A stretch of 64,000 nt of DNA, taken from a bacterium (GTDB lineage: Bacteria; Patescibacteriota; Gracilibacteria; UBA1369; GCA-2718715). Below the pieces are notes generated by a model. The model saw nothing but the letters and a program-made list of their open reading frames with translations. It had not been told where the DNA came from and searched no databases. Position 1 is the stretch's first letter. The number at the start of each line of letters is the position of its first letter. Position numbers and translations under genes: made by a program. The stretch spans positions 12,447 through 76,446 of the forward strand of contig PBFJ01000014.1 of NCBI GenBank assembly GCA_002718715.1. The letters run 5' to 3'. Of this stretch, positions 11,413 through 36,682 are shown in pieces.

Positions 11413-13794
11413 ATGGTTAAATTCAAAAGTAATTTAGAGAGAAATAAATTCAATCCACATCAGTATATTAAGTTTATAAAAGAACCTAATAATCGAAGAT
11501 TCCATGACTTAGATTGTCTGTTGTGGTCAAAACTTTTTAATACAGATAAAAGGTTAAATGAAATTGTAAAAGATCTAGTAGTAGACTACTCTTACAATGA
11601 AAACGATGAAGCAAATAGAGTATTGATTTATAGATCTGATCCAAGTGGAGAATATCAAGATATAAGAATCTTTATTAGTAAAATGATTAGCGACAAATTT
11701 AAAATTCTTGAAAGTCATAATTTAAATGAATTTCAAATTTTTGAAATTTTTAAAGCGTCTAAGTTTAAATATTTAACATCAATTTCTAAATTTATTAGAG
11801 ACCCTGAAGCGAAAAAATATGCAGAAACTCAAGCTGAAATTGCAAACATCAAGGAACCTAGTTTAAGTGGAGATGACCATCCTGTTTTAGTTAATAATGA
11901 CCCAAGTTTAAGTGGAGACGACAATCCTGCTTACAACCCAGATTTAGAACCTAGACTGACTGACAAAACACCTATTCACGAAAGAAGTACAGTAGAAACT
12001 CCTAAAAATGTAGTTGCAGATGTAGAACTAACAAGAAGATTTGTGCTTAAGGGACTATTAGCTGCCGCTGTCGCCGGCTCAACAATAAAAATTTTAGAGC
12101 CCACTGATGAACTGGTATCAGATTCTAATACTATTCCCGGTTTTGATTCAGTACCTAGCCCGGTAACTCCCCCCCCTGCTGACCATCAAATAAATCATGA
12201 GCCTTTACCTGGTCCAATTAATCCTTCAGAAGAACCTGAAGCAAATGAAAATGCTCTCGAGACTCTGAGTAGAAATCAACTAATAGAGAAGTTAAAAGAG
12301 GTAACTGAAAGTTACAAAGATGCAACTAAGAAGGCTTCTACTTTTATGCTGACCGAAAGCCCAGAAAATGAATTTTTTATAAAAGCCATAGATTTAATAA
12401 GTAAAATCAACCTAAGTGCAGAAGAATTCCTAGAATTAAAGCTAATTGAAAGTTGTAATCTTGTGAAATTTAAATCTGATAAAACTAGAATTGATAATCT
12501 TGCAGGTAAAGCGATGGTCCAAAGTGATAAGTGGTTGATAAAACTTCTTCAAAGAGCTTATGATACTAGAAGAGAAAGAGAAGAAAGAGCTAATGATTTT
12601 GGTGATGGAAACTTTTACAATGCAATTACTTCAGTATGTTCTGAATTAGAAAACGAAGTACATACTGGCACTAAAGATACAGTGGATTTATTTCCAGAAA
12701 TTAAGGATGTTCTTTTTGATCCAAACGTTATTGAATCAATCTTGATGATAGAAGGTGGTTTTAGAGCTGATGATTTAATGAATTCTACAGCAGTTTTAGC
12801 AATCACAAGGTCTTTGATAAATAGCGGTGAATTTAATCCAAATTTTGGTTCTGCAGATGTATATAGTGGTAAACATAGAATGAAAATTGCTCTTAATCAC
12901 ATTCTAACAAGTGTATTTATTCAAAAAGGAAAATTTAACAATAAACATGTTAAAAGATATTTTGATGATCTAGGTATCTTAGAATCTTTTAAAGATAGCA
13001 ATGATAACACTGAAAGAACTTGGACATCTTATCGATTAAAAAAATGTAGCCCTTTCTCTTCTTATAAGCTACGTAACAATCCAGCAAGACATGCTCCTAC
13101 AGAAACTAAAATAGCTGAAATTTTAATTGATCCACAAGCTTCAGTTAAATTAGCGTTAATGTCCTACAGAGAAAATTTACATTATTGTAGATCAGCCCTA
13201 GTAAATAACATTGATAACCTAAGAGAATTTGCAAATCCTCAAGCTGTGTCTAACTTTTGGTTAAAAATTGTAGCTTCTACTAATATTTGTGGAGGACCTA
13301 GAGTAGGAAAATTTTTAAGAGAGTTAGCTAAATACCCTGGATTTATATCAGATGATGAATTTGAAAATTTAAATTTAGAACAAGAACGACAGACTCTTCA
13401 AAAATTTGCAAAACTTATCAAGTTCTCAGAACTAAAAAGTAAAAGACAAATTAGGGCGATGTCTAGATCTGAAAGAAATGATTACTACAATTCTATAAAA
13501 GCTGAATTTCAAAATACCGAAAAATACCCGAAGAAAAAAACTGAAGAAGAACTAAATGAAATGAGTTTAGAAGATCTACAAAAACATATTGCAAATTATA
13601 ATAAAGCTTTAAAAAATTGGTATGAAACTATCTTGAATCAAAAAAGACGTAATAAGTTAATATATCATCCTGAATACTCTGAAAAGGTAGATAATATAAT
13701 GAGTACAATTAACTTAACTCCTCATATTGAAACTCAATTAGACCTAAGTAAAGCTCAAGCCTTAAGCAATCCACTGAACACTGATAATCTTTAA
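11413..13794 (+). CDS. Hypothetical membrane-anchored large protein (793 aa) with an internal Tat-like signal-anchor
   Basis: Long ORF. aa 207-228 read TRRFVLKGLLAAAVAGSTIKIL (nt ~12031-12096). Duplicated motif EPSLSGDDHP / DPSLSGDDNP at aa ~148-172. The ~560-aa C-terminal domain has no recognised family. Confidence 0.85.
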   Translation: MVKFKSNLERNKFNPHQYIKFIKEPNNRRFHDLDCLLWSKLFNTDKRLNEIVKDLVVDYSYNENDEANRVLIYRSDPSGEYQDIRIFISKMISDKFKILESHNLNEFQIFEIFKASKFKYLTSISKFIRDPEAKKYAETQAEIANIKEPSLSGDDHPVLVNNDPSLSGDDNPAYNPDLEPRLTDKTPIHERSTVETPKNVVADVELTRRFVLKGLLAAAVAGSTIKILEPTDELVSDSNTIPGFDSVPSPVTPPPADHQINHEPLPGPINPSEEPEANENALETLSRNQLIEKLKEVTESYKDATKKASTFMLTESPENEFFIKAIDLISKINLSAEEFLELKLIESCNLVKFKSDKTRIDNLAGKAMVQSDKWLIKLLQRAYDTRREREERANDFGDGNFYNAITSVCSELENEVHTGTKDTVDLFPEIKDVLFDPNVIESILMIEGGFRADDLMNSTAVLAITRSLINSGEFNPNFGSADVYSGKHRMKIALNHILTSVFIQKGKFNNKHVKRYFDDLGILESFKDSNDNTERTWTSYRLKKCSPFSSYKLRNNPARHAPTETKIAEILIDPQASVKLALMSYRENLHYCRSALVNNIDNLREFANPQAVSNFWLKIVASTNICGGPRVGKFLRELAKYPGFISDDEFENLNLEQERQTLQKFAKLIKFSELKSKRQIRAMSRSERNDYYNSIKAEFQNTEKYPKKKTEEELNEMSLEDLQKHIANYNKALKNWYETILNQKRRNKLIYHPEYSEKVDNIMSTINLTPHIETQLDLSKAQALSNPLNTDNL
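12169..12176 (+). repeat. C8 homopolymer in the coding sequence of the 793-aa gene
   Basis: act ccc ccc cct (..VTPPPA..), just downstream of the membrane anchor. Confidence 0.9.
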
Positions 13795-23404: not shown

Positions 23405-24187
23405 CTAAAGAAGGATTTCGTAGAAACCTTTGAAGCTCTCATGGATGTCTTTATGGTATGAAAAACAATAGATTTTTTGATTGTCCATAATAACTAAACT
23501 CACAAAAAAAGGTTTAGATGGATTGTTAATATAAAAAGACTCTTGGAATTGATTGTTTTTATTAATTTGGATTCCTTCATATGATTTTGTAACAGCTTGT
23601 AAAAGAGTATAAAAATAATCAGCTTTTTGAGAGTCTTCAAAAGTAATTTCTGTACCTTTGGCCATTAAACTATTTTGCTTAGTGTACTTATAATTTTTGA
23701 ATGACTGAAAATCCTCTTTTGATAAATCGATCGTGTCAAAAATCAAGGTTTGATTTTCATCTAAAGAAATTTCTAAGTCTTGAATATCGATAGAGGCAAA
23801 ATATTTTATAAGTTTAGACTCAACTTCTTGTGTTTTTGAAAGTGAAACTTCTTCTTGTGATGAGTCTTCTTGATCTGAACTTTTTAAAAAGTCTTTAAAA
23901 AATTCGGTGTTAAAACTTACCTCTTGGGATTCCTGGTTTAAATTTAAAGATTCTGAATCCTGGGAGATTTGAGAATCATTATTTTTTTGCTCTAAAGCTT
24001 GCTCTTGGAAATCTTGAACTTGAGAGCCTTGAGGCTCTGAAGTTTTAGAGTTTGAGGTTTGAAAGAAAGCTGAATTGGCTTGCAGTTGATTAGCTGGAGC
24101 CGATGGAGCTGTATTGAACTGGCTTTCTAGCAAAATTGTGATTGAAAAGAAGGCAAATATTGCCAAGAAAATTGTACTTTTGTGCAT
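23405..24187 (-). CDS. Hypothetical secreted Q/S/E-rich protein (260 aa)
   Basis: Signal-like N-terminus MHKSTIFLAIFAFFSITILLES. A low-complexity acidic region is followed by a ~130-aa globular C-terminus. Confidence 0.7.
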   Translation of the reverse strand: MHKSTIFLAIFAFFSITILLESQFNTAPSAPANQLQANSAFFQTSNSKTSEPQGSQVQDFQEQALEQKNNDSQISQDSESLNLNQESQEVSFNTEFFKDFLKSSDQEDSSQEEVSLSKTQEVESKLIKYFASIDIQDLEISLDENQTLIFDTIDLSKEDFQSFKNYKYTKQNSLMAKGTEITFEDSQKADYFYTLLQAVTKSYEGIQINKNNQFQESFYINNPSKPFFVSLVIMDNQKIYCFSYHKDIHESFKGFYEILL

Positions 24188-25331: not shown

Positions 25332-26255
25332 ATGAAATTTTTAAAGAAATTAGTAATTTTAGTTGGTGTTTTATTAATGGGTTTGAATCTAGCTTTTGCC
25401 GAGGAAGTTAATGAAATTCCTGCAAGACCTTTTTTACCAATTAATAACGAAGCTTTTGAGGAAGATTTTGTGAATATTTCAGATACCGAAAAGGAAGATT
25501 TCTTTGGTAAGTCTAGTATTTTACTAAAAGATGTAACTTTTATTATTCAACTATTAATTGGAGCCTTAGCTAGTATACTGACCATATCTTCTGTTTTATC
25601 TATGCTTACTGCTGGTATGGATAGTGAGGAAGGCATGACGAAATTAAAAGATACTATATTATATATAGTAATGGGTATTGGTCTTGTTTTCTTAGCTGGA
25701 GAAATTGGATCTTTATTAAGTCTGCAAAAAGGTGGGGTTATTGGATCTAAAACGGATGTGCTAAAAAGAGTTCAAATTTTTGATCAAAATGTAGAAGTGT
25801 TGATTGCTCTGATAAGATATACTTTAGCCGGACTTGCCGTTTTATTTATAACAATTTCAGGAGTTAAAATGGTAGCTGGGGCTGGAAGCGAAGAAGATGC
25901 AGCTAAAGAAAAATCTTACATTACTTATGCAGCAATGGGTTTGATATTATTTTTAATCTTCGACAATATATTAGGTAACATAATATATAGTATAGGTTCG
26001 CCTTTTACGGATCCGACTATTTCACCAAGCGGAGCTAAGATGGAGCTAATTGGATTTACTAATTTGGTAGTTTCCTTTGTAGGACCGGTTGCAATACTTT
26101 CAACTGTAATTGGTGGAGTTATGTATGCCTCAAGCGGATTTGATGAAGAACAAGCTGCGAAAGCCAAAAGAATGATTGGAGTTTCTTTAGCTGGAATTAT
26201 CTTAATCTATGCGGCTTATAGTATTATTGCAACTGTAGTTGCTGGACAATTTTAA
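25332..26255 (+). CDS. Secreted membrane protein made of three tandem VirB2/TrbC-like 'T4SS pilin' hairpin units (307 aa)
   Basis: Signal peptide MKFLKKLVILVGVLLMGLNLAFA. Then three copies of [TM - (A/S)G..(S/D)EE...K.K - TM]: LTAGMDSEEGMTKLKD, VAGAGSEEDAAKEKS, ASSGFDEEQAAKAKR. Confidence 0.75.
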   Translation: MKFLKKLVILVGVLLMGLNLAFAEEVNEIPARPFLPINNEAFEEDFVNISDTEKEDFFGKSSILLKDVTFIIQLLIGALASILTISSVLSMLTAGMDSEEGMTKLKDTILYIVMGIGLVFLAGEIGSLLSLQKGGVIGSKTDVLKRVQIFDQNVEVLIALIRYTLAGLAVLFITISGVKMVAGAGSEEDAAKEKSYITYAAMGLILFLIFDNILGNIIYSIGSPFTDPTISPSGAKMELIGFTNLVVSFVGPVAILSTVIGGVMYASSGFDEEQAAKAKRMIGVSLAGIILIYAAYSIIATVVAGQF

Positions 26256-26264
26256 CCTTTAAAT

Positions 26265-27248
26265 ATGCTTTCTTTTATAAAAAAATTTTTAATCTCACTT
26301 GGACTAATTAGTACCCTACTTTTTACAAACCTAGCTTTTGCTGAAACTCCTGATTCAAGTAACCCTCAAGGTTTCTTAAAAGATAGATTAGACTTAATTT
26401 TCGAAAAGTATTCAGCAGAAACTGGATTACTTCCTGTGTCTGATACCTCGTCGAAATTTGTTCTTGAAGAAAGAGGTTACTTTAATATAACATCTGTAGT
26501 TTATGCAATTATTGGTCTTATGAAATATGTAGCTTATGCCATAATGTCTATTACTATTGTGATTTCGATTGTTAAATTAATAACCGCTGGAAGCGAAGGG
26601 GCTGAAGAAGTTTGGGGGAATATGAAAAAGTACTTACTGCAAATTTTAATTGCAGTGGGGGTTATATTAACCGCTGAGTTTATTTTTAATAAAGTAATAA
26701 TGCCATCAGCTGTAAGTTCGATCGCAGGAGCCAAAGAGGCTGCCGGGCAAATTGGTGGAGAACTAGCTGGAATTGTTGGAATCATTCAAGGTTTAATTGT
26801 GATATTCTCAATCTGTATGCTAATTTTTGCTGGGAGTAAAATGGTTGCAAATATGGGAGATGAAGAAGCTATGAGTAAAGCTAAAAATCAAATTTTCTGG
26901 GGAGCTGGTGGTCTACTTGTAGTAATGTTGGGTGGAACTTTAGTTAATGAAATAATTTTTGTAAATGCCGAGTCGGTAGACCCAATAGCTGGATCTAGAT
27001 TGATTGTAAATATTACTAATTTTATTTCAGGAATAATTGGAACTATAAGTTTAATGGCATTCTTTTATGCCGGCGGCCAATACATTGTGGGTGGATTTAC
27101 AGAAGTCAACCAGGACTCAATTAAAAATGCGATATTTGGTGGAATAATTGGACTTGTGATAGCTCTTGGAGCATTTGCGATTGTTAACACTGTAATTGAC
27201 TTAGATAATCCAAGTGTACAGGTTTTTGATCAACAGCCAGAGTTTTAG
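26265..27248 (+). CDS. Second triple pilin-hairpin protein (327 aa), paralogue of 25332-26255
   Basis: Signal peptide ..LLFTNLAFA. Units ITAGSEGAEEVWGNMKK, VANMGDEEAMSKAKNQ and VGGFTEVNQDSIKNA, each flanked by TM helices. Ends with ..AFAIVNTVIDLD. Confidence 0.75.
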   Translation: MLSFIKKFLISLGLISTLLFTNLAFAETPDSSNPQGFLKDRLDLIFEKYSAETGLLPVSDTSSKFVLEERGYFNITSVVYAIIGLMKYVAYAIMSITIVISIVKLITAGSEGAEEVWGNMKKYLLQILIAVGVILTAEFIFNKVIMPSAVSSIAGAKEAAGQIGGELAGIVGIIQGLIVIFSICMLIFAGSKMVANMGDEEAMSKAKNQIFWGAGGLLVVMLGGTLVNEIIFVNAESVDPIAGSRLIVNITNFISGIIGTISLMAFFYAGGQYIVGGFTEVNQDSIKNAIFGGIIGLVIALGAFAIVNTVIDLDNPSVQVFDQQPEF

Positions 27249-27274: not shown

Positions 27275-27302
27275 AACTAAGTTTTAGGACTTAGTTTTTT
27301 TT
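27275..27302 (+). terminator. Rho-independent terminator after the two pilin-like genes
   Basis: aactaagt-tttagg-acttagtt followed by T8. Confidence 0.65.
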
Positions 27303-27438
27303 ATTGAAAAAACTTTGTGCAAGATTTTTCAAAACCATGTATAATATACTTGTTAAAATTGTGCATTTCTGTGGTTTTTTGTTGTCAAAAAGCCCAAAAT
27401 TTGATACAATATAGGGAATAATAATTAATTAATTTTAA

Positions 27439-30400
27439 ATGGCGAAATTTAATAGAATTAAAAATTGTTTAAAAGCTGTATTTGTAGGCTTTTTTGCGAT
27501 TTTACTACTTGGAGCTTTAGGAGGCTCAAGTTATACAACTCATGCGGATTTTTGTTCGGATGTATCTTCTGAATTCGGAGGATTTTTGGAGTGTGATGAA
27601 AAATTTTCATCTTTTTCAAGTTTCCGAGGAGGAATCAAAGCTCCAACTGGAGATGGTCTTGATCCAAGTTTAACGCAAACTGACAGTGCTCAGGATTTTG
27701 TTTTAAATATTGCAAACTTTGCTCTTGGATTTTTAGGAACGATTGCAATTTTAGTAATTGTTTATTCTGGATTCTTATATGTGACTTCTGCGGTGGATGA
27801 CTCAAATATTGAATCTGCAAAAAACAATATAAAATACTCAATCTATGGAATCTTAGTAATCTTAGGTTCATACGCCATTGTGAACACAGTTATTCAAGCT
27901 CCAGGTGGAGACAGCTCTTCTCAACTAGCCAACCAATCAAACTTAGAACAATTAGATAGATTTAATTCAGTTGCTTTTGAATTAAAAGATATTGCAAGAG
28001 ACATGACGCAAGCCTATGAAATCTATCGCCAGGATACTACTAACCTTCGAAGTTTATTAGCTACCAAACCATCGGAGTTTAATACGAGAAAAAATACTAT
28101 TACACAACTGCAAAGAATGCGTAATGCATTTATTAACCTTGAAAAACAAAGAGGTGCACTTTCTAACACAGGATTTCTAGCAAGAGATGTAGTCGAATTT
28201 GGTATAGACCCTACAATTACTACCTTAAATGGTATTATTACTGCCGAAAGAGAAAGTGAATTGGAAAATCGATATAAAGATTCACCTGCGGCAAATTTAA
28301 TAGAAAACATCGCAGGAGGTGTAGCTAACTTTTTCGCAAATCTATTTGAAAAAGACGATGAAATGCTTTTTTATGTATGTTCATTAGAACCTGAAGATAG
28401 GCCTATAAGCTATAAAGTAGAAGACTGTGAAAATGCCTTTAGACCTCAAGCTCAAGGAATTGAATTAACTATTGATTTCAATCCAAATAGTAATATCGAC
28501 CCAGATGATGATAAATCAAAAACTCTTGGTGATTTGTATCCACTAACAAGTAAACTTGTAAAAGATTACAACGATATGAAAAACGATGATAACGATAACT
28601 CTGGAAATAAAATTCATGATTTTGTCTATTATAGAAATGCTATATTGATAGCTTACACTCTTGAAGCTGGTGTTAAAGAAGATTTTGATCTACAACTTTC
28701 AAATATTAAAACTAGAATGAAAGTGATAAAAGACTTGGTTTCTTCTTACCCAGAATTAAAAAATAATCTACAAGCTTTAATTGATGATCTTCCAGATGTA
28801 GTTGATGCCTCAAACAATGCAACTGCTGATTTTAAAGATGACGATGGAGCTGGATCTGATTGGCACGTATTTGATTTGAAAACAAGTGCAAAATCAACTC
28901 TTAGTTTTTCAGGTGAATCTACTCAAAAGAAAGTGGCAGGATTTATTCAATCCTTATCAGAAATTCATACTAAAATTGAAAATGCTAAATTCACTGTACC
29001 GGTGATTGATGTAAATGTAGTTGAAGGTTCAGCACCACTTGTTGTGACTTTTGATGCAAGTGGAAGTTATGATCCAAGTAATAGATCTGTGCTAACAGAT
29101 AGTCAAGATTCGGGAGTTAATGATAATGTAAATAGATTACTGTGGGACGTAAATGGAAATGGAAAATTTGAGTCTTCGGTAGGAGTTACTAGTAATACAG
29201 AGCCTTTCTCTGCTATTAATTCTGAGCAAATTAGCTGTAGTAATTATGAGTCTGAAAGCGTTTCTTTTACATGTACATTTAAACAACCTGGATCTTTTAG
29301 AGTAGGGTTAATGCTTAAATCCCTTTCGCAAACTTCAACAGTTGATGCTGCTCCGTGGGTAGAAGCAATGAGTGATCAACCAGTTACTGGTCCTATTCTA
29401 CTTGATGTGGAATCTGAGCTGAAAAATATTCTGACTGGGATTGCTTATCAAACAATTAGAGTAAAACCTCCGACTTCGAGGATTAACCTGCTTGGATACT
29501 CCTCTACAAATAGTGCTTTTAGTGGAGATATGTTAATGAACTCTCTAAATTCAATTGATACAATTGGTGACAAGGGTTTAAGATGGCATTCAGAGAGTGG
29601 AATTTTATTATATGACAATCCTGAAATTAAATTTACCTTAGCTGAAGCTAGCTCTGGGATTACTTTTGATGCTTCATTTTCTGAACCAAGCGAAAATTTA
29701 AATAGGTTTTCATGGAGATTTTCAGATAAAGCTGGTAACTTTTCTGGAACTACTGGTACACCAGAGAATTTACCTGATAATCTAATTAATGATTCAAATA
29801 CAGAGATTATTCAAGATAATCTTTTGGGGCCGAAAATCACGCGGAATTTTGACAAGAGAGGTCGAGTGCAAGTGCAACTTGAAGTGGAAGATAATAATGG
29901 AAACTTAGATAGAAAAATGTTTGATGTTGTGGTTGGAAGCTTGGTTGCAAGATTAAGAACCAATAAAACTTCTGGATTTATTGGTGAAGAGTTTACATTA
30001 AGTGCAGAAGACTCAAGATCAGACTTTGGATCAATTACTTATAAATGGACAGTAGATGGTGAAGAAAATGCCTTGGATTGTAATGCTGATAACGATGATT
30101 TTGTATGTTCTTTCAATGAAGATGGAGATGTTTTAAGATTTAGAGCTTTGCAACCTAAAGATTTTAATATTTCGGTAGAAGTTTCTTCGGAAAGTGCTGA
30201 GGGTGTATCTGAATCGGCTTCGGTGAATTTGGATGTGAATCCAAGACCGCTTGAACCGCTAATTGTGATTGATCAAAATAGTCTGTTTGATCCGGCTAAA
30301 TTTACTTTAAATGCAAGTTTAACTTCTGATCCAGATGAGCAAATTGATAATTTTAATCCAGCTGCAAGCTATACCACTGAATATGAATGGAAAGTTTTAA

Positions 30401-33400
30401 ATGGAGTTGAAAATACTGATTATCAAGAATTAATTCCTGATAATCAAGAAGAAACAGAAATAACTTTCTTAAAACCGGGAACTTACCGAATTGGTTTGAA
30501 GGCTAGTAAAGTTTCTACTGATGAACCTAATGAGGTTTTAGTGAGTAGTACTGCGGAAAGCTCGTTGCTGGTAAGTGGTGTTATGAACTTAGTATTAGAT
30601 AATCCTGGAGCTGGAACGCTTGAAGCCAATGTAGAAACTGGATTACTTGAAAGTGGTGAAGTAGTTGTGACTGTGACTTCAAGAACTGCGAATCGAGTTA
30701 CTTTGGACTTTGGAGATGGAACTCGTGAATCATTAAAAAGACCTGCAGGTATAGCTTCAGGTCAGGATCATAGATTTGAGTTTACACATACTTATGCCTT
30801 AGCTGGTTCATATAAAATTGGGGTTTTTGCAGAAAGTGAAACTGAATCAAAAGCTTTAAGTAGTACGATTATTATTGGTGGTGGAGATACTCCTACTGCG
30901 GTAATTGCGGCTACTGTGGGTGGAAACACTTTCTTAAGTGGAGCTAATGATCTGCCTGATGTATTTAGAAAAACTAGAATTGAGTTTGATGCTTCGAAAT
31001 CTTTGAACTTAGATGGGACAAATAAAGGTCTTAAATATTCATGGGATTTAGGAGATGGTACTACTAGAACTCAAAAGAAATTTATTTATAACTATAAAGA
31101 TTATCCGCCTCTTGGGGAACCTGGATTTGATGTTACTTTAACTATTACGGATGCCAAAGATCCGGAAGTTACAAATACTGCAAATTTATTTGTACCACTT
31201 GGTAAAGCGAAACCTTCGATTGAAAATATCTCAGCTGAAAGTATTAATGGTCCAGTTACACCTTTTGATGTAAGAGTTAAAGCTGTGGGTCCTTATGATG
31301 CTGATGGTAGAATCGAAACATTTAGATACTACTACTTCCCTCTTGATGATCCAGATGAACAATTAGGAGTGAGAGTTTCTAAATCAGCAACTGAAGTACT
31401 TAGAATAGGAACTAGGGGTGATGAAGGCGAAGAAGTTGACTATGGAATTTGTATTGATGTGATTGATAACGAAGGAATTGAAAGAAAATGTGAAGTTATG
31501 TTCTTAGAAGGAACTCCGGCTGTGATTACAGCAATAAATGGAGAAAATAAATTACCTTCTTCTAAATTTAGAGCTGATAAAACTTCGGTGAAAATTGGAG
31601 AAAGCGTGACTTTCTTTGACCAATCTTTCGATCCAGATGGAACAGTAGTTGAAAGAAAATATGATATTTTAGGTGATGGAAGTTTTGCGAACGATGAAGT
31701 TTTTATTTCTAGAGCTTCTGTAATTAATTACGATACTATTTCTCCTAGAAAAGGATTTAGAGTTGTGCAACAAGTTGTGGATGACAAAGGTGGAGTTGCA
31801 GTTAGTAATCCTATCTTTATATATGTAGAATCAAATTTTGAACCACCTGAAGCTGCCTTTGTGGTTGAAGTAGATGGAATGGATATTTCTATCCAAAATA
31901 ATTCTCAAGCGGACGTAAATGCAAATATTGCGAGTTATGGATGGGATTTTGATATTAAAACAGATTCAGATGGAAATGATGTTGCAGATGACGACTTGGA
32001 CTCTACTGAAAACGAACCAAACTTTACTTATACAAGAAGTGGTCAAAAAACTATTAAACTAACTGTTACTGATAATGAAGGAAATGTGGATACAGCTACT
32101 GAAACTATTGAAATTGGTGGAAAATTAGCCCTTCCAAGAGCAGCCTTTAATTTCTCGAGAGATAAATTAAAAGTTGTTACAAAAAACAATTCTGAAGCGG
32201 ACTTTATTAACGGTGGTGAAATTGTTTCATATGAATGGGATTTTGATATTGCTACGGATTCCAAAGGTGGAAAAGATCCGGCAAACAATGTTGATTCAAC
32301 TAGTAAAAATCCAGTTATAAATTACGATAAGCCAGGAACTTATACAGTTGCATTAACTGTGGAAGATAACGAAGGTAACCGTGATAGAATTGAAAAAGCA
32401 ATCGCGGTTCAAGAAGAAAAAACTGCTAAACCCCAAGCTGCCTTTACCTATGAAGTTTTAGAGGATAAAACTGTGAAATTCACCAGCAATGCAAAAGTTG
32501 CTGAAGGATCTAATTTAACAATTCGAGAAATTTATTGGGATTTTAATATAAATCCAAATGATCCAAATGCGGATGCAGATGGAAATGGATTTGCAGACGA
32601 TGATCAAGAAGAAGTTGGAAACAACTCTCCTTCTTTCACTTACGATAGTTATGGAGTAAAAAGAGTTTCATTAACTGTTACTGATTCGGCTTTAAGTACA
32701 GATACTGTTGAAAGAATAATTGAGATTCCTTTTCCTCAGGCTGCAACTCCCACTCAACAAGCTATAAATGATTTAAGTAATAGTGGACAAGCTCCTCAAA
32801 ATGCAACAAATGTTCCAACTAATCAGCAAATATTTCCTGGAAATATTAATCCTAATGCAAGCGGACTTTCTGCTGACAATAATAGAATTTTTCAAAAAAC
32901 TCCTGAACAAATTGCAATCGAAAGAGAACTTGGAATTGGACAAGATTCACAAGATGACTCTAGTACAGTTCAAGATAGTTTAGATTCATCGCAAAGCTTA
33001 ACGGATTTTAATCCAAATAAATTTATTATTACTGAGCCTGCCTACAATGAGTTTACAGATAAATTAACTTCAACTGAAAACTCTCAAGTTGTGACTTTTA
33101 AATTTGATCATCTTCCAAGTGAAATTATTGAAATTCAAGTTGATTCTAATGTTTATGTAGATACTAGTAACGATGGGATTTTTAACAACGATGTGGATTT
33201 TAGAACTATAAGTAAACAAGATTTCACAACAACTTATACATCTACATCAAGCGATATTAGAGCCAGAGTTACTTTAATTGATAACACTGGAGTCAAATAC
33301 TATGATTCGATTGATATTGAATTTAAAGGGTTGGATTTCTCTGCATCTTTAAACTTAGATGGAGATAAAACTATGCAAACTGCTTCAGTTGCTGTTTTTC

Positions 33401-33447
33401 TAACAGGAGCTTCAGCATTATTAGTTCGTTTGATAAGACTTTTTTAG
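27439..33447 (+). CDS. Giant surface protein (2002 aa): signal peptide + one pilin-like hairpin + helical stalk + long PKD/Ig-like array + C-terminal TM anchor
   Basis: N-terminus ..LGFLGTIAILVIVYSGFLYVTSAVDDSNIESAKNNIKYSIYGILVILGSYAIVNTVI shares the AIVNTVI end motif with 26265-27248. There are >=12 PKD-type modules with WDF/WDL..GDG signatures (YSWDLGDGT, YGWDFDIKTDSDGN, YEWDFDIATDS, IYWDFNINPND). C-terminus ..ASVAVFLTGASALLVRLIRLF. Confidence 0.9.
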   Translation: MAKFNRIKNCLKAVFVGFFAILLLGALGGSSYTTHADFCSDVSSEFGGFLECDEKFSSFSSFRGGIKAPTGDGLDPSLTQTDSAQDFVLNIANFALGFLGTIAILVIVYSGFLYVTSAVDDSNIESAKNNIKYSIYGILVILGSYAIVNTVIQAPGGDSSSQLANQSNLEQLDRFNSVAFELKDIARDMTQAYEIYRQDTTNLRSLLATKPSEFNTRKNTITQLQRMRNAFINLEKQRGALSNTGFLARDVVEFGIDPTITTLNGIITAERESELENRYKDSPAANLIENIAGGVANFFANLFEKDDEMLFYVCSLEPEDRPISYKVEDCENAFRPQAQGIELTIDFNPNSNIDPDDDKSKTLGDLYPLTSKLVKDYNDMKNDDNDNSGNKIHDFVYYRNAILIAYTLEAGVKEDFDLQLSNIKTRMKVIKDLVSSYPELKNNLQALIDDLPDVVDASNNATADFKDDDGAGSDWHVFDLKTSAKSTLSFSGESTQKKVAGFIQSLSEIHTKIENAKFTVPVIDVNVVEGSAPLVVTFDASGSYDPSNRSVLTDSQDSGVNDNVNRLLWDVNGNGKFESSVGVTSNTEPFSAINSEQISCSNYESESVSFTCTFKQPGSFRVGLMLKSLSQTSTVDAAPWVEAMSDQPVTGPILLDVESELKNILTGIAYQTIRVKPPTSRINLLGYSSTNSAFSGDMLMNSLNSIDTIGDKGLRWHSESGILLYDNPEIKFTLAEASSGITFDASFSEPSENLNRFSWRFSDKAGNFSGTTGTPENLPDNLINDSNTEIIQDNLLGPKITRNFDKRGRVQVQLEVEDNNGNLDRKMFDVVVGSLVARLRTNKTSGFIGEEFTLSAEDSRSDFGSITYKWTVDGEENALDCNADNDDFVCSFNEDGDVLRFRALQPKDFNISVEVSSESAEGVSESASVNLDVNPRPLEPLIVIDQNSLFDPAKFTLNASLTSDPDEQIDNFNPAASYTTEYEWKVLNGVENTDYQELIPDNQEETEITFLKPGTYRIGLKASKVSTDEPNEVLVSSTAESSLLVSGVMNLVLDNPGAGTLEANVETGLLESGEVVVTVTSRTANRVTLDFGDGTRESLKRPAGIASGQDHRFEFTHTYALAGSYKIGVFAESETESKALSSTIIIGGGDTPTAVIAATVGGNTFLSGANDLPDVFRKTRIEFDASKSLNLDGTNKGLKYSWDLGDGTTRTQKKFIYNYKDYPPLGEPGFDVTLTITDAKDPEVTNTANLFVPLGKAKPSIENISAESINGPVTPFDVRVKAVGPYDADGRIETFRYYYFPLDDPDEQLGVRVSKSATEVLRIGTRGDEGEEVDYGICIDVIDNEGIERKCEVMFLEGTPAVITAINGENKLPSSKFRADKTSVKIGESVTFFDQSFDPDGTVVERKYDILGDGSFANDEVFISRASVINYDTISPRKGFRVVQQVVDDKGGVAVSNPIFIYVESNFEPPEAAFVVEVDGMDISIQNNSQADVNANIASYGWDFDIKTDSDGNDVADDDLDSTENEPNFTYTRSGQKTIKLTVTDNEGNVDTATETIEIGGKLALPRAAFNFSRDKLKVVTKNNSEADFINGGEIVSYEWDFDIATDSKGGKDPANNVDSTSKNPVINYDKPGTYTVALTVEDNEGNRDRIEKAIAVQEEKTAKPQAAFTYEVLEDKTVKFTSNAKVAEGSNLTIREIYWDFNINPNDPNADADGNGFADDDQEEVGNNSPSFTYDSYGVKRVSLTVTDSALSTDTVERIIEIPFPQAATPTQQAINDLSNSGQAPQNATNVPTNQQIFPGNINPNASGLSADNNRIFQKTPEQIAIERELGIGQDSQDDSSTVQDSLDSSQSLTDFNPNKFIITEPAYNEFTDKLTSTENSQVVTFKFDHLPSEIIEIQVDSNVYVDTSNDGIFNNDVDFRTISKQDFTTTYTSTSSDIRARVTLIDNTGVKYYDSIDIEFKGLDFSASLNLDGDKTMQTASVAVFLTGASALLVRLIRLF

Positions 33448-33499: not shown

Positions 33500-35641
33500 A
33501 TGAATGAGAACGAAAACTTTAATGAATTTAACGATAGTAACGAAATCCATAATGATTTTGAAGACTTTGATGAAATCTTAATTGATAACGATTTTAAGAA
33601 TGATGCTGAGCCATCAAAAGATAAAAAAAAGAAAAAATCTGCCAATAAAGGCCTGACTCTAATGATGATTTCTATCGCTGGAGTTTTGGTTTTATCTTTT
33701 GTATTAACTGGACTTCTATTTGGATTATCCTCTGGAGAAGATAATGCAATTTTAGCTTCAATTGGAATCTCAGCTTTGAATGCTGTTAACTTTTTAAAAC
33801 TAAGTCTTACTTTAGTATTCGGACTTTCAAGTTTGGTGGGTCTTTTGTTTTTCTTAATTAATTTATTTTCATATACACAAATTGATTTTTTGGAAGTAGA
33901 AGAAAGAAAACTCAAATTTAAAAATGTAATTTTTGGTGGAGTGACCTTTTTTGTATCGGTTGTACTAGCATTATTAATCGCTGTATTTTGGAATACAGGT
34001 CCTAAAGAAGAAGTTAAAATTGAATATATTGGAACTAATTTAGAATCGACTTTAAACTTAACTGCTCCAATTGAAATTGAATTTTCTGCTAAAAATTTAC
34101 CTATAGATACATCCAAAGCTCAAATTGTATCATATAATTGGAACTTTGGTGATGGTGACTCTGGAACTGGACAAACTATTTTTAAGACTTATAAAGATAA
34201 ACCAGCAACTGGAGTTTATGAAGTTAAACTTGGAGTGAGTTATTTTGAGGTAGCTGATAAATCTCAAGAAATTAAAACTCTGGAATTTACAAGATTAGTT
34301 GGAATCGACAATGTAGAGGTTACTGCAGACTTTGAAATGCAACCTAAAACAGGATTTGCTCCTTTATTAGTAGAATTTGATGCTTCAAGTTCTGTGGATC
34401 CAGATGGTTCAATTATTTTATATGAATGGGATTTTAATGGAGACTCAGTAGTTGATAGCGAAGGAGTTAAAGGTGAGTTTACTTATGAAAACGTAGGTTT
34501 ATTTAAACCAACTTTGATTGTAACTGATAACAATGGAAGAAGTTCAAAAGTATCTAAAGATTTAATTGTTAAGACGGATGAAGTTTTTACACCAAGAATT
34601 AAAGTTAGTCCTAGTGATGATGTTTTGACTCCGAATAGAAGTTATCAATTTGATGCCTCTGATTCATTAAGCCTAGAAGGTGAAATTACAAATTACAAAT
34701 GGAACTTTGGTGATGGAAAAGAAAGAGTTGGAAGAAAAGTTTCTTACAGCTTTGAAAACGAAGGTATTTATGAAATAACTTTAGAACTTTTAGATGATGC
34801 AGGAAACAAGACTCAATACTTTGAAAACTTTACTGTGTCTTCCTCCCCTTCTGGATTATTTCCAAAGATTACTTCAATCCCTGAAATTGTAGATGGAAAA
34901 ATTGAAGGTCAAATTCCTTTTAAAATACAACTTGATGCTGGAGCTTCATCGGGAGCTAAAATTGTTGAGTATTCTTGGGATTTTGAAAACGATTCAGTTT
35001 TGGATGCTTCTGGTCAATTAGTTGAGCATGTTTATACTGTTCCAGGTAAATATGATTTGAAACTTACTATAACTTCAGCAGCTGGAAAAACAGCAAGTAA
35101 AATTGTAGAAGTTGAAGTATTTGATTCAGATTTAAGACCTGAAGTAAGTGCTAACCCTAGCCTTGGAAATGTACCTTTAGAAGTAACTTTTGATGCATCT
35201 GCAACTAAAGCACCTGTAGGAGCTAATATTGTACAGTTTAGATGGAATTTTGATGATGGAACTCCAGTTTTAAGAGCTGGTTCGACTGTAACTCACCTCT
35301 TTACAAGAACTGGAGAATTTAATGTTGAAGTTACAGCTGTAACTGATGAGAATGAAATAGCTTCGACTAACATTTTAGTATTTGTAAATGAAATCCCTTT
35401 GAAAGCTTGTTATAAATCTTCAAGAATTGAAGGTCCTGCGCCTTTGACTGTATTATTTAATCCTAATTGTACTACTGGAAATGTAGCTAGATTTGAATGG
35501 GATTTTGCAGGTCTGGGAGACTCTGAAGATAGAAAGCCAAGCTTTACATTTGAAGAAGCTGGAGAATTTGAAGTAATTTTAAAAGCTTTTGATCCAGATA
35601 ATAACCTTTCAACTTTCAAAGAAACTATTAAAGTAAAATAA
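33500..35641 (+). CDS. Membrane protein (713 aa) with N-terminal TM hairpin(s) and ~7 PKD domains
   Basis: Acidic N-terminus, then TM segments around ..GLLFGLSSGEDNAILASIGISAL.. Repeated PKD signatures follow: YNWNFGDGDSG, YEWDFNGDS, YKWNFGDGKE, YSWDFENDS, FRWNFDDGT, FEWDFAGLG. Confidence 0.9.
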   Translation: MNENENFNEFNDSNEIHNDFEDFDEILIDNDFKNDAEPSKDKKKKKSANKGLTLMMISIAGVLVLSFVLTGLLFGLSSGEDNAILASIGISALNAVNFLKLSLTLVFGLSSLVGLLFFLINLFSYTQIDFLEVEERKLKFKNVIFGGVTFFVSVVLALLIAVFWNTGPKEEVKIEYIGTNLESTLNLTAPIEIEFSAKNLPIDTSKAQIVSYNWNFGDGDSGTGQTIFKTYKDKPATGVYEVKLGVSYFEVADKSQEIKTLEFTRLVGIDNVEVTADFEMQPKTGFAPLLVEFDASSSVDPDGSIILYEWDFNGDSVVDSEGVKGEFTYENVGLFKPTLIVTDNNGRSSKVSKDLIVKTDEVFTPRIKVSPSDDVLTPNRSYQFDASDSLSLEGEITNYKWNFGDGKERVGRKVSYSFENEGIYEITLELLDDAGNKTQYFENFTVSSSPSGLFPKITSIPEIVDGKIEGQIPFKIQLDAGASSGAKIVEYSWDFENDSVLDASGQLVEHVYTVPGKYDLKLTITSAAGKTASKIVEVEVFDSDLRPEVSANPSLGNVPLEVTFDASATKAPVGANIVQFRWNFDDGTPVLRAGSTVTHLFTRTGEFNVEVTAVTDENEIASTNILVFVNEIPLKACYKSSRIEGPAPLTVLFNPNCTTGNVARFEWDFAGLGDSEDRKPSFTFEEAGEFEVILKAFDPDNNLSTFKETIKVK

Positions 35642-35815: not shown

Positions 35816-36682
35816 GTGCCAACTAATTTAATGGACAACTCGAATTTAGACTCAAATGATCAATCTTCGAACTCTACAAACCCTATAACTTCAAGTAAAG
35901 TTTCTGAAATAAAACTATCTGATCCTAAAAGTTCAGATATGGGTTTTGTGGATGACTTTAAACTTTTCCTAGCAGAAAACTCTAATTTAGTAATTGGAGT
36001 TAGCGTTGGTACATTAATTTTAGTTTTTGGAGTATTGTTTGCACTAAGTTCAAATCAATCAATCGAAAACCAAAATACACTTTCAGAAATTGCATCAAGT
36101 GCTACTGGGGCCTTGATTGTAGATGAACCATCAAGTTCTGCCAGTGATAAACCTCCAACTTTAGTTGCAAAAACTGATACCAACTCAGGAACTTCAAATA
36201 CAAATTCTAGTAAAGACTCCTCTACTTCTTCGAATAAAAAACCGATTACATTGCCGCCTTTGAGTATCAATGAATTGCAAGATAGTCAAAATAGTAATAA
36301 TACTTTGAACGTAAATGATATTAGTTCAGGAAATTTATCTAACCAAGCTCTAAGCAATCAAAATCCAAATGGACAAAGTCCGTTTGCTGGAGGCTCTTCA
36401 TTTTTAGGAGCTAATACTCAGGCTGCTAATCAAGTTGGATCTCCGGCTGGAGGAATTCAAAATTTATCTGCAAATATTCCTGCGGCTTCTGCTAATACAG
36501 CTAATAGTTTGGGAGCTAATCCAAATATGAATCGAACTGGTGGATTTTTATCGAATACACAATCTCAGGTTTTACAATCTAGAAATGTTCAAGGAAACAC
36601 AGGTCCTGCTGTTTACTATACTTTAGCGTTTAGCTTTTTAGCTTCCTTTTTGTATAGACTAAGAAAAAAGAAGACTGATTAG
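35816..36682 (+). CDS. Ser/Asn/Thr-rich low-complexity membrane protein (288 aa) anchored at both ends
   Basis: GTG start (or ATG at 35831). TM LVIGVSVGTLILVFGVLFAL, a long S/T/N/Q-rich region, and a C-terminal hydrophobic segment plus basic tail (VYYTLAFSFLASFLYRLRKKKTD). Confidence 0.7.
   Translation: MPTNLMDNSNLDSNDQSSNSTNPITSSKVSEIKLSDPKSSDMGFVDDFKLFLAENSNLVIGVSVGTLILVFGVLFALSSNQSIENQNTLSEIASSATGALIVDEPSSSASDKPPTLVAKTDTNSGTSNTNSSKDSSTSSNKKPITLPPLSINELQDSQNSNNTLNVNDISSGNLSNQALSNQNPNGQSPFAGGSSFLGANTQAANQVGSPAGGIQNLSANIPAASANTANSLGANPNMNRTGGFLSNTQSQVLQSRNVQGNTGPAVYYTLAFSFLASFLYRLRKKKTD

What the first reader, a model, noticed from the sequence alone, without database searches (positions are those of the whole stretch)
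27439..33447. 2002-aa chimera: pilin-like hairpin fused to a helical stalk, a >=12-module PKD array and a C-terminal anchor
Seen: the N-terminus has a signal/TM segment, then one hairpin unit (..VYSGFLYVTSAVDDSNIESAKNNIKYSIYGILVILGSYAIVNTVI). This unit ends in the same AIVNTVI heptapeptide as the last unit of the upstream gene. About 350 aa of helical, coiled-coil-like sequence follow, then a long series of PKD/Ig-like modules (WDF/WDL..GDG..T.T..V.D signatures). After an N/Q/S/T-rich spacer come a last beta domain and a C-terminal hydrophobic helix with a basic end (FLTGASALLVRLIRLF). Established: PKD domains are extracellular adhesion and interaction modules. Inference: this may be an adhesin that is incorporated into, or caps, the structure formed by the upstream poly-pilins, like a minor pilin or tip adhesin. 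I do not recall this architecture being described for T4SS-type pilins.
Basis: partly seen in the sequence, partly recalled or inferred. Interest (0 to 1): 0.75.

Follow-up and report, generated by a model that had tools for sequence, protein, structure and literature searches.

The report
Giant surface fibre with pilin anchor
A 2002-residue surface protein of an uncultured ultrasmall (CPR/Patescibacteria) bacterium starts with the membrane hairpin of conjugative-pilus subunits and continues as a helical stalk and about twelve Ig-like modules. It belongs to a large family that I found described in no paper I could search, and every locus examined encodes it beside two triple-pilin genes, which makes it a strong candidate for the host-contact part of these bacteria's pilus-like apparatus.

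Summary
ORF 27439-33447(+) encodes a signal peptide, a Cys-pair segment, one T4SS_pilin hairpin (PF18895, above Pfam's cut-off), a helical stalk of about 360 aa, and 11-12 PKD/Ig-like modules. These are followed by an N/Q/S/T-rich spacer, a last Ig-like domain and a C-terminal TM helix with a basic end.

The hairpin is 41% identical (E 8e-13) to the last unit of the upstream gene.

It is not a one-off chimera. I retrieved 226 full-length relatives (median 1595 aa), named Peregrinibacteria or Gracilibacteria where a source names them. In 8 of 8 loci the gene sits in the same cassette: secE-nusG | triple-pilin A | triple-pilin B | giant | TM+PKD protein. No VirB4 is nearby in any locus.

The hairpin is the most conserved segment. 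Part of the stalk is hypervariable.

Best reading (0.42): a modular VirB2-type minor pilin whose hairpin docks it into the assembly made by the two poly-pilins and displays a PKD fibre for host contact. The main rival (0.35) is a purely membrane-resident anchor complex, favoured by the C-terminal anchor found in 71% of members.

I found no description in the literature I could search. I rate it a new variant of a known kind.

The parts
25332..26255 (+). Poly-pilin A: signal peptide plus three T4SS_pilin hairpin units in one 307-aa chain. First gene of the conserved cassette.
   Evidence: Pfam PF18895 gives 3 stretches. The family hairpin HMM finds three units at aa 68-120, 165-209 and 240-304. 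The same gene is present in all 8 loci.
26265..27248 (+). Poly-pilin B: signal peptide plus three hairpin-like units (six TM helices) in 327 aa. The last unit ends in AIVNTVI.
   Evidence: Pfam PF18895. Hydropathy shows 6 TM segments after the signal peptide. The HMM finds units at 170-232 and 246-313 here, and three units in the orthologs of L003-L005.
27275..27302 (+). Terminator-like AT-rich hairpin (9-bp stem, 27275-27296) plus a T-run, between poly-pilin B and the giant.
   Evidence: Fold energy -7.6 kcal/mol, z = -2.9. The sequence is conserved in L001. This is a consensus-level inference only.
27382..27410 (+). Best promoter-like site of the region (TTGTCA-17-TACAAT with an extended TG), 29 nt upstream of the giant's ATG.
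   Evidence: 10 of 12 matches, conserved in L001. Not evidence of function.
27439..27546 (+). Signal peptide (aa 1-36; predicted cleavage THA|DF).
   Evidence: Hydrophobic segment aa 6-33. The A-x-A|DFC junction is conserved in relatives. The cleavage site is inferred, not predicted with a dedicated tool.
27547..27675 (+). Conserved extracellular N-terminal segment with a Cys pair (C39, C52) and the SF..F.GG..AP motif (aa 37-79).
   Evidence: Majority-residue fraction 0.50 and occupancy 0.99. dN/dS 0.05. The Cys pair is present in 108 of 226 relatives.
27676..27897 (+). VirB2-type pilin hairpin (aa 80-153): TM helix, short charged loop, TM helix, ending in YAIVNTVI.
   Evidence: PF18895 at 29.4 bits against a cut-off of 26.6. 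41% identity to the last unit of B. AF2 helices 84-116 and 121-153. Most conserved segment of the protein: majority fraction 0.65, 12 of the 40 invariant columns within aa 80-153, dN/dS 0.07. The [FY]A[ILVF]VNT motif is in 203 of 226 relatives.
27898..28983 (+). All-alpha stalk (aa 154-515) with a Cys pair (CSLEPEDRP...C).
   Evidence: AF2 helices 159-208, 217-238, 243-279, 285-302, 390-433, 438-450 and 495-514, mean pLDDT 63. No fold or sequence relative in the PDB.
28429..28938 (+). Hypervariable part of the stalk (aa 331-500).
   Evidence: 38% identity and 22 gap positions against an ortholog that is 85% identical overall. dN/dS 0.64, dS 0.96. Lowest family conservation, 0.19.
28984..32721 (+). 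Array of about 11 PKD/Ig-like modules (aa 516-1761). The last module (aa 1665-1761) is a lineage-specific addition.
   Evidence: Family-trained PKD profile. Pfam on the whole protein and on segments. Modules M9-M11 are 31-43% identical to each other. Occupancy of M11 across the family is 0.29.
32722..33048 (+). N/Q/S/T/P-rich spacer (aa 1762-1870), lineage-specific.
   Evidence: Composition. Occupancy 0.32 across the family.
33049..33324 (+). Conserved C-terminal Ig-like beta-sandwich with an acidic D.N.DG...ND.D loop (aa 1871-1962).
   Evidence: AF2 pLDDT 80-90. Nearest folds are Fn3-like and PKD domains, TM about 0.55 on the target. dN/dS 0.03. Conserved across the family, 0.47.
33379..33444 (+). 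C-terminal TM helix with a basic end (aa 1981-2002, ...LVRLIRLF).
   Evidence: Hydropathy. 160 of 226 relatives end in a TM helix, and 154 of these have at least 2 K/R after it. No known sorting-signal model matches.
33500..35641 (+). Fourth cassette gene: cytoplasmic N-terminus, three TM helices, then 6 PKD domains (713 aa). TM2-loop-TM3 may be a degenerate pilin hairpin.
   Evidence: Pfam PKD gives 6 stretches. The gene is present in all 8 loci. The hairpin likeness is inconclusive: NCBIfam pilin-like model E 0.0094; hhalign finds the right register but probability is 5%, P 0.0075.

Best explanation
The gene encodes a modular pilin of the VirB2/TrbC type, that is, a pilin hairpin onto which a very long extracellular fibre has been grafted.

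Proposed sequence of events:
1. Sec export and signal-peptide cleavage leave the hairpin in the cytoplasmic membrane. Both of its ends face outward, as in VirB2/TraA pilins.
2. The C-terminal end of the hairpin continues as a helical stalk, about 11 PKD modules, a spacer and a last Ig-like domain.
3. Through the hairpin, which is the most conserved part of the protein, the giant docks beside the hairpin units of the two upstream triple-pilins. It becomes a low-copy member of the same assembly, a pilus-like filament or its base.
4. This holds a fibre of several tens of nanometres (my estimate from module count) at the cell surface for contact with the host cell. The hypervariable part of the stalk is the likely specificity determinant.

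What is shown: the architecture and topology signals, the homology of the hairpin to the neighbouring units, the conserved four-gene cassette, the purifying selection and the local hypervariability.

What is inferred: co-assembly with the poly-pilins, the low stoichiometry (from a terminator-like and a promoter-like site between genes B and the giant), the adhesive role, and any dependence on a VirB4 machine encoded elsewhere in the genome.
For: Hairpin identity. PF18895 scores above its cut-off. The hairpin is 41% and 31% identical to the last units of the two upstream proteins, E 8e-13 and 2e-11.

Topology. The signals are self-consistent: signal peptide, outward-facing N-terminal segment with a Cys pair, TM helix, short charged loop, TM helix, then a long ectodomain.

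Conservation.
- All 28 aligned relatives carry T4SS_pilin plus PKD.
- 98 of the best 150 library hits are 1369-2666 aa with the match at the N-terminus.
- The hairpin is the most conserved segment: majority fraction 0.65 against 0.14-0.56 elsewhere, and dN/dS 0.07. Passive TM anchors are not expected to be this conserved (my inference).

Linkage. The cassette A-B-giant-D is identical in 8 of 8 loci, down to 23% identity. A and B each carry three hairpins in all five cassettes analysed.

Variability. The stalk segment aa 331-500 is 38% identical in an ortholog that is 85% identical overall. This is the pattern expected of a surface specificity determinant.

Possible separate transcription. A terminator-like hairpin and the region's best promoter-like site lie between B and the giant, and both are conserved in L001.

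Background from papers.
- VirB2 pilins sit in the membrane and are extracted to polymerise (PMC12624023).
- CPR bacteria carry essential VirB2-like pilin arrays, and no PrgB-like adhesin was found in them (PMC10633639, PMC12102498, PMC12857230).
- Pilins with grafted adhesive modules exist in type IV pili (PMC8179133).
Against: - No pilus built from PF18895 proteins has been observed. Reviews speak only of a 'potential to elaborate conjugative pili' (PMC12857230).
- No virB4 or other recognisable T4SS gene lies in the 64-kb window or within 10 kb of the cassette in any locus.
- 160 of 226 relatives, this one included, end in a TM helix with a basic tail. That would tie the far end of the fibre to the producer's own membrane unless it is cleaved, which is hard to reconcile with a position at the tip of a long pilus.
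- The stalk has no detectable similarity to VirB5 tip proteins.
- The cassette sits in the core genome beside secE-nusG-rplKA. This fits a housekeeping envelope structure as well as it fits a host-contact organelle.
- PKD domains are generic modules, so an adhesive role is only an inference.
Confidence: 0.42

Rival explanations
1. Membrane-resident anchor complex. In this reading the pilin-like hairpins never leave the membrane. A, B, the giant and D pack side by side through their hairpins into a platform in the membrane. The platform holds PKD fibres on the cell surface as a fibrous coat or fence. The giant is tied down at both ends, by the hairpin at the N-terminus and by the TM helix at the C-terminus, and so forms an arch. 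No VirB4-driven extraction or filament is involved.
For: - 71% of relatives have a C-terminal TM helix plus a basic tail, a natural second anchor.
- No T4SS ATPase gene lies near any of the 8 cassettes.
- The cassette is a core-genome operon next to secE-nusG in every locus. This suits a constitutive envelope component.
- Concatenated triple hairpins are easy to picture as polytopic membrane proteins.
- The fourth protein, D, has a cytoplasmic N-terminus and three TM helices, like an ordinary membrane protein.
- Fibrous cell surfaces attributed to giant membrane proteins are reported for the related Vampirococcus (PMC8080830).
Against: - The hairpin is conserved far more strongly than I would expect for a mere anchor, with invariant N93, F98, L99, G100, Y109, G111, Y114, G137, V148, N149 and T150.
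- The hairpins belong to the VirB2/TrbC-related Pfam family. 6 of 28 relatives also hit PF04956 TrbC.
- 29% of relatives lack the C-terminal anchor, so double anchoring is not required.
- In Gracilibacteria T4SS genes are generally scattered rather than clustered with virB4 (PMC12102498). Distance from virB4 is therefore weak evidence.
Confidence: 0.35
2. The fibre is a structural or self-interaction element rather than a host adhesin. Whatever the anchoring mode, the PKD array would serve cell-envelope spacing, cell-to-cell stacking of the bacterium's own cells, or protection, not recognition of a host.
For: - PKD/Ig-like arrays are generic rigid spacers, and no lectin, integrin-like or other known ligand-binding domain was found.
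- Modules M6-M10 and the last domain are under strong purifying selection, dN/dS 0.03-0.10.
- The cassette has a universal core-genome position.
Against: - A hypervariable segment sits inside an otherwise conserved protein: aa 331-500 at 38% identity, aa 636-727 at 59%, both with raised dS. This is typical of surfaces that meet a changing partner such as a host, a phage or a competitor.
- These bacteria are thought to depend on hosts, and for Saccharibacteria the VirB2-like pilin array is essential for epibiotic growth (PMC10633639).
Confidence: 0.12
3. Artefact: a mis-assembled or mis-called fusion of a small pilin gene with a separate PKD gene.
For: None beyond the unusual size. The B-giant gap shows that the pilin genes and the giant are separate ORFs.
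Against: - The reading frame is uninterrupted for 2002 codons.
- An ortholog on an independent MAG contig shows the same fusion at 84% identity.
- 226 relatives from many sources have the same architecture and similar lengths.
- The hairpin-to-stalk junction (VNT.IQAPGG) is conserved.
Confidence: 0.01

Closest known systems
VirB2/TrbC/TraA conjugative pilins of type IV secretion systems (Pfam PF04956, and the CPR-rich PF18895 T4SS_pilin)
   Same: Signal peptide followed by a two-helix membrane hairpin with a short charged loop. PF18895 hits above its cut-off, and 6 of 28 relatives also hit PF04956. The gene lies next to other pilin-type genes.
   Different: Classical pilins are small, with a mature size that I recall as roughly 70-120 aa. 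This protein adds about 1850 extracellular residues after the hairpin and usually a C-terminal TM anchor. No virB4 lies nearby. Polymerisation has not been demonstrated.
VirB2-like pilin arrays of Patescibacteria (essential array in Southlakia epibionticum; 441 arrays of 2-11 pilin genes; PMC10633639, PMC12102498)
   Same: Same Pfam family, same bacterial radiation, several divergent pilin units side by side, and chromosomal location.
   Different: In those arrays each gene encodes one small pilin and most arrays sit near virB4. Here the units are concatenated three per polypeptide (A and B), one unit is fused to a giant PKD fibre, and the cassette sits beside secE-nusG. The survey reports that no PrgB-like adhesins were detected in CPR and does not mention fusions of this kind.
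VirB5/TraC/CagL minor pilus-tip proteins
   Same: An all-helical extracellular domain associated with VirB2 pilins, with a proposed role in target-cell contact (PMC12624023).
   Different: VirB5 has no pilin hairpin and is small, about 220 aa from memory. Foldseek and profile searches of the stalk against the PDB, which holds VirB5 structures 1R8I and 8RT9, gave nothing.
Modular type IV pilins, such as PilB of Streptococcus sanguinis (PMC8179133)
   Same: The same design principle: a pilin module that directs incorporation into a filament, with an adhesive module grafted on its C-terminal side. Occurs in a monoderm bacterium.
   Different: A different and unrelated pilin superfamily: type IV pilins have a single N-terminal helix, are processed by a prepilin peptidase and are assembled by a PilB/PilC-type machine. 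The grafted part here is far larger.
Cell-wall-anchored adhesins of Gram-positive conjugation systems (PrgB) and LPXTG sortase substrates
   Same: A large surface protein with Ig-like modules and a C-terminal hydrophobic helix followed by basic residues.
   Different: No LPXTG or related motif is present, and no sorting-domain model matches. The N-terminus carries a pilin hairpin instead of a plain signal peptide. 29% of relatives lack the C-terminal tail.
Pam pili of CPR bacteria (bioRxiv 10.64898/2026.03.03.709456)
   Same: A CPR-specific surface filament built from Ig-like folds and thought to reach the host.
   Different: Pam pilins assemble by donor-strand exchange with chaperone-like factors and have no VirB2-type hairpin. 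The only link here is a faint Ig-like hit to PamR, 19.8 bits against a cut-off of 300.

Membership tests
T4SS_pilin (Pfam PF18895; VirB2/TrbC-related) | Match to the family HMM at or above the curated gathering score | tested here: met
   29.4 bits against a cut-off of 26.6, aa 81-149, profile positions 2-69 of 71. All 28 aligned relatives match.
T4SS_pilin (Pfam PF18895; VirB2/TrbC-related) | Signal peptide followed by two TM helices joined by a short charged loop | tested here: met
   Hydropathy segments at 6-33, 86-120 and 134-153. AF2 helices 84-116 and 121-153. No dedicated signal-peptide predictor was available.
T4SS_pilin (Pfam PF18895; VirB2/TrbC-related) | Small single-domain protein (pilin size) | tested here: not met
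   2002 aa, with about 1850 residues following the hairpin.
T4SS_pilin (Pfam PF18895; VirB2/TrbC-related) | Genomic association with virB4 or other T4SS machinery genes | tested here: not met
   No T4SS family hit among the 39 window ORFs scanned, which include every ORF of at least 450 aa (Pfam; NCBIfam). None within 10 kb in 7 other loci. The rest of the genome could not be examined.
T4SS_pilin (Pfam PF18895; VirB2/TrbC-related) | Extraction from the membrane and polymerisation into a pilus | not testable with these tools
   Needs cryo-EM or cryo-ET, surface shearing with mass spectrometry, or genetics.
PKD-domain surface proteins (PF00801/PF18911) | PKD HMM matches above the cut-off, in tandem | tested here: met
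   PKD_4 126 bits and PKD 109 bits. Further modules found on segments and with a family-trained profile.
VirB5-type pilus-tip protein | Sequence or fold similarity of the helical domain to VirB5/TraC/TrwJ | tested here: not met
   Foldseek against the PDB: best E 0.47, no VirB5 entry listed. Profile search of PDB sequences: only coiled-coil noise. The model has only moderate confidence (pLDDT 63), so distant likeness is not excluded.
Sortase/exosortase-type C-terminal sorting signals (LPXTG, PEP-CTERM, GlyGly-CTERM and similar) | Signature motif before a C-terminal TM helix and basic tail, matched by a curated model | tested here: not met
   The TM helix and basic tail are present, but no LPXTG-like motif is. 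NCBIfam gave no hit to the tail of this protein and only sub-threshold noise for one relative.
Modular pilins (concept from type IV pili, PMC8179133) | A pilin module plus a grafted functional module in one polypeptide that is incorporated into the filament | tested here: inconclusive
   The bimodular architecture is met. The pilin module belongs to a different superfamily, and incorporation is untested.

The most novel reading that the evidence does not exclude
Peregrinibacteria and Gracilibacteria would build their host-contact organelle from a core-genome operon that is separate from virB4. Its shaft or base would be made of covalently concatenated VirB2-type units (two triple-pilins). It would be decorated by two proteins in which a VirB2-type hairpin (clear in the giant, only possible in the shorter protein D) is fused to PKD fibres, the giant carrying a hypervariable specificity region. 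This would be the first modular pilins and the first poly-pilins of the conjugative-pilus superfamily, and the adhesin not so far detected in the T4SS-related apparatus of CPR bacteria.
Probability: 0.3. Interest if true: 0.8.

Novelty: new variant of a known kind. Interest (0 to 1): 0.62.

Why it matters
T4SS-related genes and VirB2-like pilin arrays are essential for the epibiotic life of the one genetically tractable CPR bacterium. Nobody yet knows what structure they build or how it touches the host. A recent survey found no PrgB-like adhesin in CPR T4SS loci (PMC10633639, PMC12102498, PMC12857230).

This family offers a concrete candidate for that contact element. It is a pilin hairpin physically fused to a long Ig-like fibre, it is encoded with two poly-pilins in an operon kept across a whole class of CPR bacteria, and it contains a defined hypervariable segment.

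The proposal leads directly to experiments: antibodies or tags against the ectodomain for cryo-ET, binding assays with the variable stalk, and multimer modelling of the hairpins.

It would also extend the 'modular pilin' principle from type IV pili to the unrelated conjugative-pilin superfamily. If the rival reading is right, it would instead show that VirB2-type hairpins have been reused as membrane anchors. That in turn would urge caution in counting PF18895 hits as evidence for pili.

Tried and rejected
1. First word-indexed search with aa 1-556 gave a single fragment hit. The exhaustive HMMER scan was needed to reveal the family.

2. I looked for a VirB5-like or any other known fold in the stalk. 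The AF2 model reached pLDDT 63. Foldseek against the PDB (best E 0.47) and a profile search of PDB sequences returned only generic helical bundles and coiled coils. Rejected as unsupported.

3. I tested whether the downstream protein D also carries a pilin hairpin. Results were NCBIfam E 0.0094, family HMM E 0.045-0.6, and hhalign in the right register but with 5% probability. Left as inconclusive.

4. I looked for a known C-terminal sorting signal. No NCBIfam model matched the tails.

5. The faint NCBIfam hit to PamR of the new CPR Pam pilus is only Ig-like similarity far below the cut-off. The Pam system works by donor-strand exchange and is unrelated.

6. I looked for T4SS machinery in the window with Pfam and NCBIfam on 39 ORFs, including every ORF of at least 450 aa. 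None was found.

7. tblastn of the N-terminal region against 72,556 plasmids gave no match.

It was repeated without that row.

9. A metaproteome supplement lists a PKD-domain surface protein from a Gracilibacteria MAG. I could not link it to this family, so I do not use it as evidence of expression.

Full report
**What is there.**
ORF 27439-33447(+) is intact and encodes 2002 residues. Hydropathy gives four hydrophobic segments: aa 6-33, 86-120, 134-153 and 1981-2002. The first is followed by THA|DF, and relatives conserve 'A|DFC' at this point. I therefore read it as a cleaved signal peptide.

Pfam places T4SS_pilin (PF18895) on aa 81-149 at 29.4 bits, above the curated 26.6, together with PKD families. 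AlphaFold2, run with a 24-sequence alignment, models aa 84-116 and 121-153 as a helical hairpin. It models aa 159-514 as a set of long helices. The mean pLDDT is 63, so this supports secondary structure only, not packing.

A PKD profile trained on the family finds modules at 516-635, 728-830, 836-929, 941-1031, 1069-1144, 1164-1250, 1373-1457, 1470-1557, 1566-1655 and 1665-1761, plus a weak match at 1873-1960. Pfam on separate segments agrees for several of these.

The last domain models confidently as a beta-sandwich nearest to Fn3-like and PKD domains. The spacer aa 1762-1870 is rich in N, Q, S, T and P.

The topology signals are self-consistent. The hairpin has both ends outside, everything after it is extracellular, and the last helix with its RLIRLF end returns to the membrane.

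**The link to the upstream genes.**
The two genes upstream (25332-26255 and 26265-27248) each encode a signal peptide followed by three pilin-type hairpins. The giant's hairpin aligns to the last unit of the second gene at 41% identity (E 8e-13), including the shared AIVNTVI. It aligns to the last unit of the first gene at 31% (E 2e-11). The one soft point is the count of 'at least 12 PKD modules': seven are significant, four are weak and one is recognisable only by motif.

**It is a family, not a chimera.**
An exhaustive HMMER scan with aa 1-560 found 11,087 proteins at E <= 1e-3. Of the best 150, 98 are 1369-2666 aa long (median about 1620) with the match at their N-terminus.

Two word-indexed searches added more, for 226 long relatives in all. 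Nearly all have precomputed PF18895 plus PKD. Where a source names them, they are called 'PKD domain-containing protein' or 'hypothetical protein' from Candidatus Peregrinibacteria, Candidatus Gracilibacteria or the 'Patescibacteria group'. One IMG entry reads 'PKD repeat protein/type IV secretory pathway VirB2 component (pilin)'.

A 28-sequence alignment shows that the whole architecture is shared: the Cys pair, the hairpin, the stalk ending in L..LY..L...F, about ten PKD-like modules and the last domain with its D.NGDG...ND.D loop. All 28 hit both T4SS_pilin and PKD_4. The window's protein is longer than most because of an extra module (aa 1665-1761) and the spacer, which occur in only about 30% of the aligned relatives.

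**Conserved cassette.**
I examined eight loci:
- the window;
- a close relative, MAG contig JABJGM010000003.1 (L001);
- five distant relatives with DNA (L003-L007);
- one further locus with gene calls only.

All eight show the same arrangement. On one strand lie secE (not called in L007), nusG, an unknown gene of 210-285 aa, rplK and rplA; in L004 a 673-aa gene without a Pfam hit follows nusG and rplK/rplA are not in the stretch fetched. Divergently on the other strand lie triple-pilin A, triple-pilin B, the giant, and a protein of 700-880 aa with TM helices and 6-8 PKD domains. The most distant giant is only 23% identical.

No locus has a VirB4 or other recognisable T4SS gene within 10 kb. 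The 64-kb window has none either.

A published survey notes that T4SS genes are unusually scattered in the class Gracilibacteria (PMC12102498). The distance from virB4 is therefore weak evidence either way.

**Selection.**
Against the L001 ortholog, overall dN/dS is 0.26.

| Segment | aa identity | dN/dS | dS |
|---|---|---|---|
| Cys segment | 98% | 0.05 | 0.19 |
| Hairpin | 96% | 0.07 | 0.30 |
| Modules M6-M10 | 93-99% | 0.04-0.10 | 0.11-0.41 |
| Last domain | 97% | 0.03 | 0.41 |
| Stalk aa 331-500 | 38% (22 gap positions) | 0.64 | 0.96 |
| aa 636-727 | 59% | 0.38 | 0.94 |

The raised dS in the last two segments suggests exchange of divergent alleles rather than point mutation alone.

Across the family the hairpin is the most conserved segment, with a majority-residue fraction of 0.65 against 0.14-0.56 elsewhere. 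It holds 12 of the 40 invariant columns.

**Regulatory hints.**
The 190-bp gap between poly-pilin B and the giant holds two features. One is an AT-rich hairpin followed by a T-run (27275-27302; -7.6 kcal/mol, z -2.9). The other is the best promoter-like site of the region (27382-27410). Both are conserved in L001. This would allow the pilin genes and the giant to be expressed at different levels. It is a consensus-level inference only.

**How it most likely works.**
VirB2-type pilins are known to sit in the membrane as hairpins and to be extracted and polymerised (PMC12624023). My own recollection, not checked here, is that both termini of F-type pilins lie on the outer face of the pilus and that short C-terminal extensions of F-pilin are tolerated and displayed.

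A pilin whose C-terminus continues into a fibre could therefore join an assembly of pilin hairpins and project the fibre outward. The strongest support comes from the extreme conservation of the hairpin, its similarity to the neighbouring units, and the invariable linkage to the two poly-pilins. The hypervariable stalk segment would be the partner-recognition region.

I put this reading at 0.42. The co-assembly, the stoichiometry and the adhesive role are all inferred.

**The main rival.**
In the rival reading the hairpins never leave the membrane, and the four proteins form a resident platform that carries PKD fibres. I put this at 0.35.

It is favoured by three things:
- the C-terminal TM helix with a basic tail in 160 of 226 relatives;
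- the absence of T4SS machinery nearby;
- the core-genome position of the cassette.

It is weakened by the strength of hairpin conservation and by the 29% of relatives that lack the second anchor.

A functional rival, a structural fibre rather than a host adhesin, gets 0.12. An assembly artefact is excluded by the family-wide conservation.

**Comparison with what is known.**
The hairpin is a member of PF18895 by score and by topology. The protein fails the size criterion of a pilin and the criterion of linkage to virB4.

The stalk is not demonstrably VirB5-like. The C-terminal tail matches no known sorting signal. The new Pam pilus of CPR bacteria is a different system.

The nearest concept is the 'modular pilin' of type IV pili (PMC8179133), which belongs to an unrelated superfamily.

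The literature available to me describes CPR pilin arrays and states that no PrgB-like adhesins were found in CPR. It does not mention pilin-PKD fusions or multi-hairpin pilins.

The sequences and their Pfam architecture are already public, so the novelty lies in recognising the family, the cassette and their meaning. I rate this a new variant of a known kind, with interest 0.62.

Noticed in passing
window 25332-27248; also library hits P0028, P0031, P0040, P0044, P0047: The upstream genes are 'poly-pilins' with three VirB2-type hairpins per chain. This holds in all five cassettes analysed. The library holds proteins with up to 8 hairpin matches in one chain (P0040, 820 aa). I found no description of concatenated VirB2-type pilins in the papers searched.
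   Followed up: partly
whole window and L001: TGA is never used as a stop. Among ORFs of at least 150 aa, stops are TAA 32 and TAG 8 in the window, and TAA 8 and TAG 5 in L001. More distant relatives (L003, L007) use TGA stops often. TGA therefore appears unused in frame in this lineage, which is related to the lineages that read UGA as glycine. No tRNA gene lies in the window.
   Followed up: partly
window 23405-24187 (-): A gene of unknown function (260 aa, N-terminal hydrophobic segment, no Pfam or NCBIfam hit) sits between nusG and rplK. A gene of 209-285 aa without any Pfam hit holds the same position in the seven other loci where rplK is in view (L004 has a 673-aa gene after nusG instead). 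This interrupts the usual secE-nusG-rplK-rplA block.
   Followed up: partly
C-termini of family members (e.g. P0153, P0204, P0225); window 33325-33444: 160 of 226 relatives end in a TM helix plus a K/R-rich tail. In 69 of these the helix is preceded by a G-[AT]-N-[LIV]-[FL] motif. This resembles a sorting signal, but no NCBIfam sorting-domain model matches it. The window's own tail lacks the motif.
   Followed up: partly
window 35816-36682 (+): An S/N/Q-rich low-complexity protein (288 aa, GTG start) with one internal TM helix and a C-terminal TM helix plus RLRKKKTD tail, like that of the giant. It is present in L001 but not conserved after the cassette in more distant loci.
   Followed up: no
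window 3138-10859 (-): A 2573-aa protein made almost entirely of pentapeptide repeats (Pfam PF00805, 661 bits, 20 stretches).
   Followed up: no
window 424-2595, 11413-13794, 50895-52442, 53515-57918: Four large ORFs (723, 793, 515 and 1467 aa) have no Pfam hit and no meaningful NCBIfam hit (one faint 16.5-bit match, cut-off 152, for the 1467-aa ORF).
   Followed up: no
window 31846-32721 (giant aa 1470-1761): The three best PKD modules carry an acidic insert (for example DSDGNDVADDDLDS) resembling calcium-binding loops. They are 31-43% identical to each other, and the third is a lineage-specific extra copy.
   Followed up: partly
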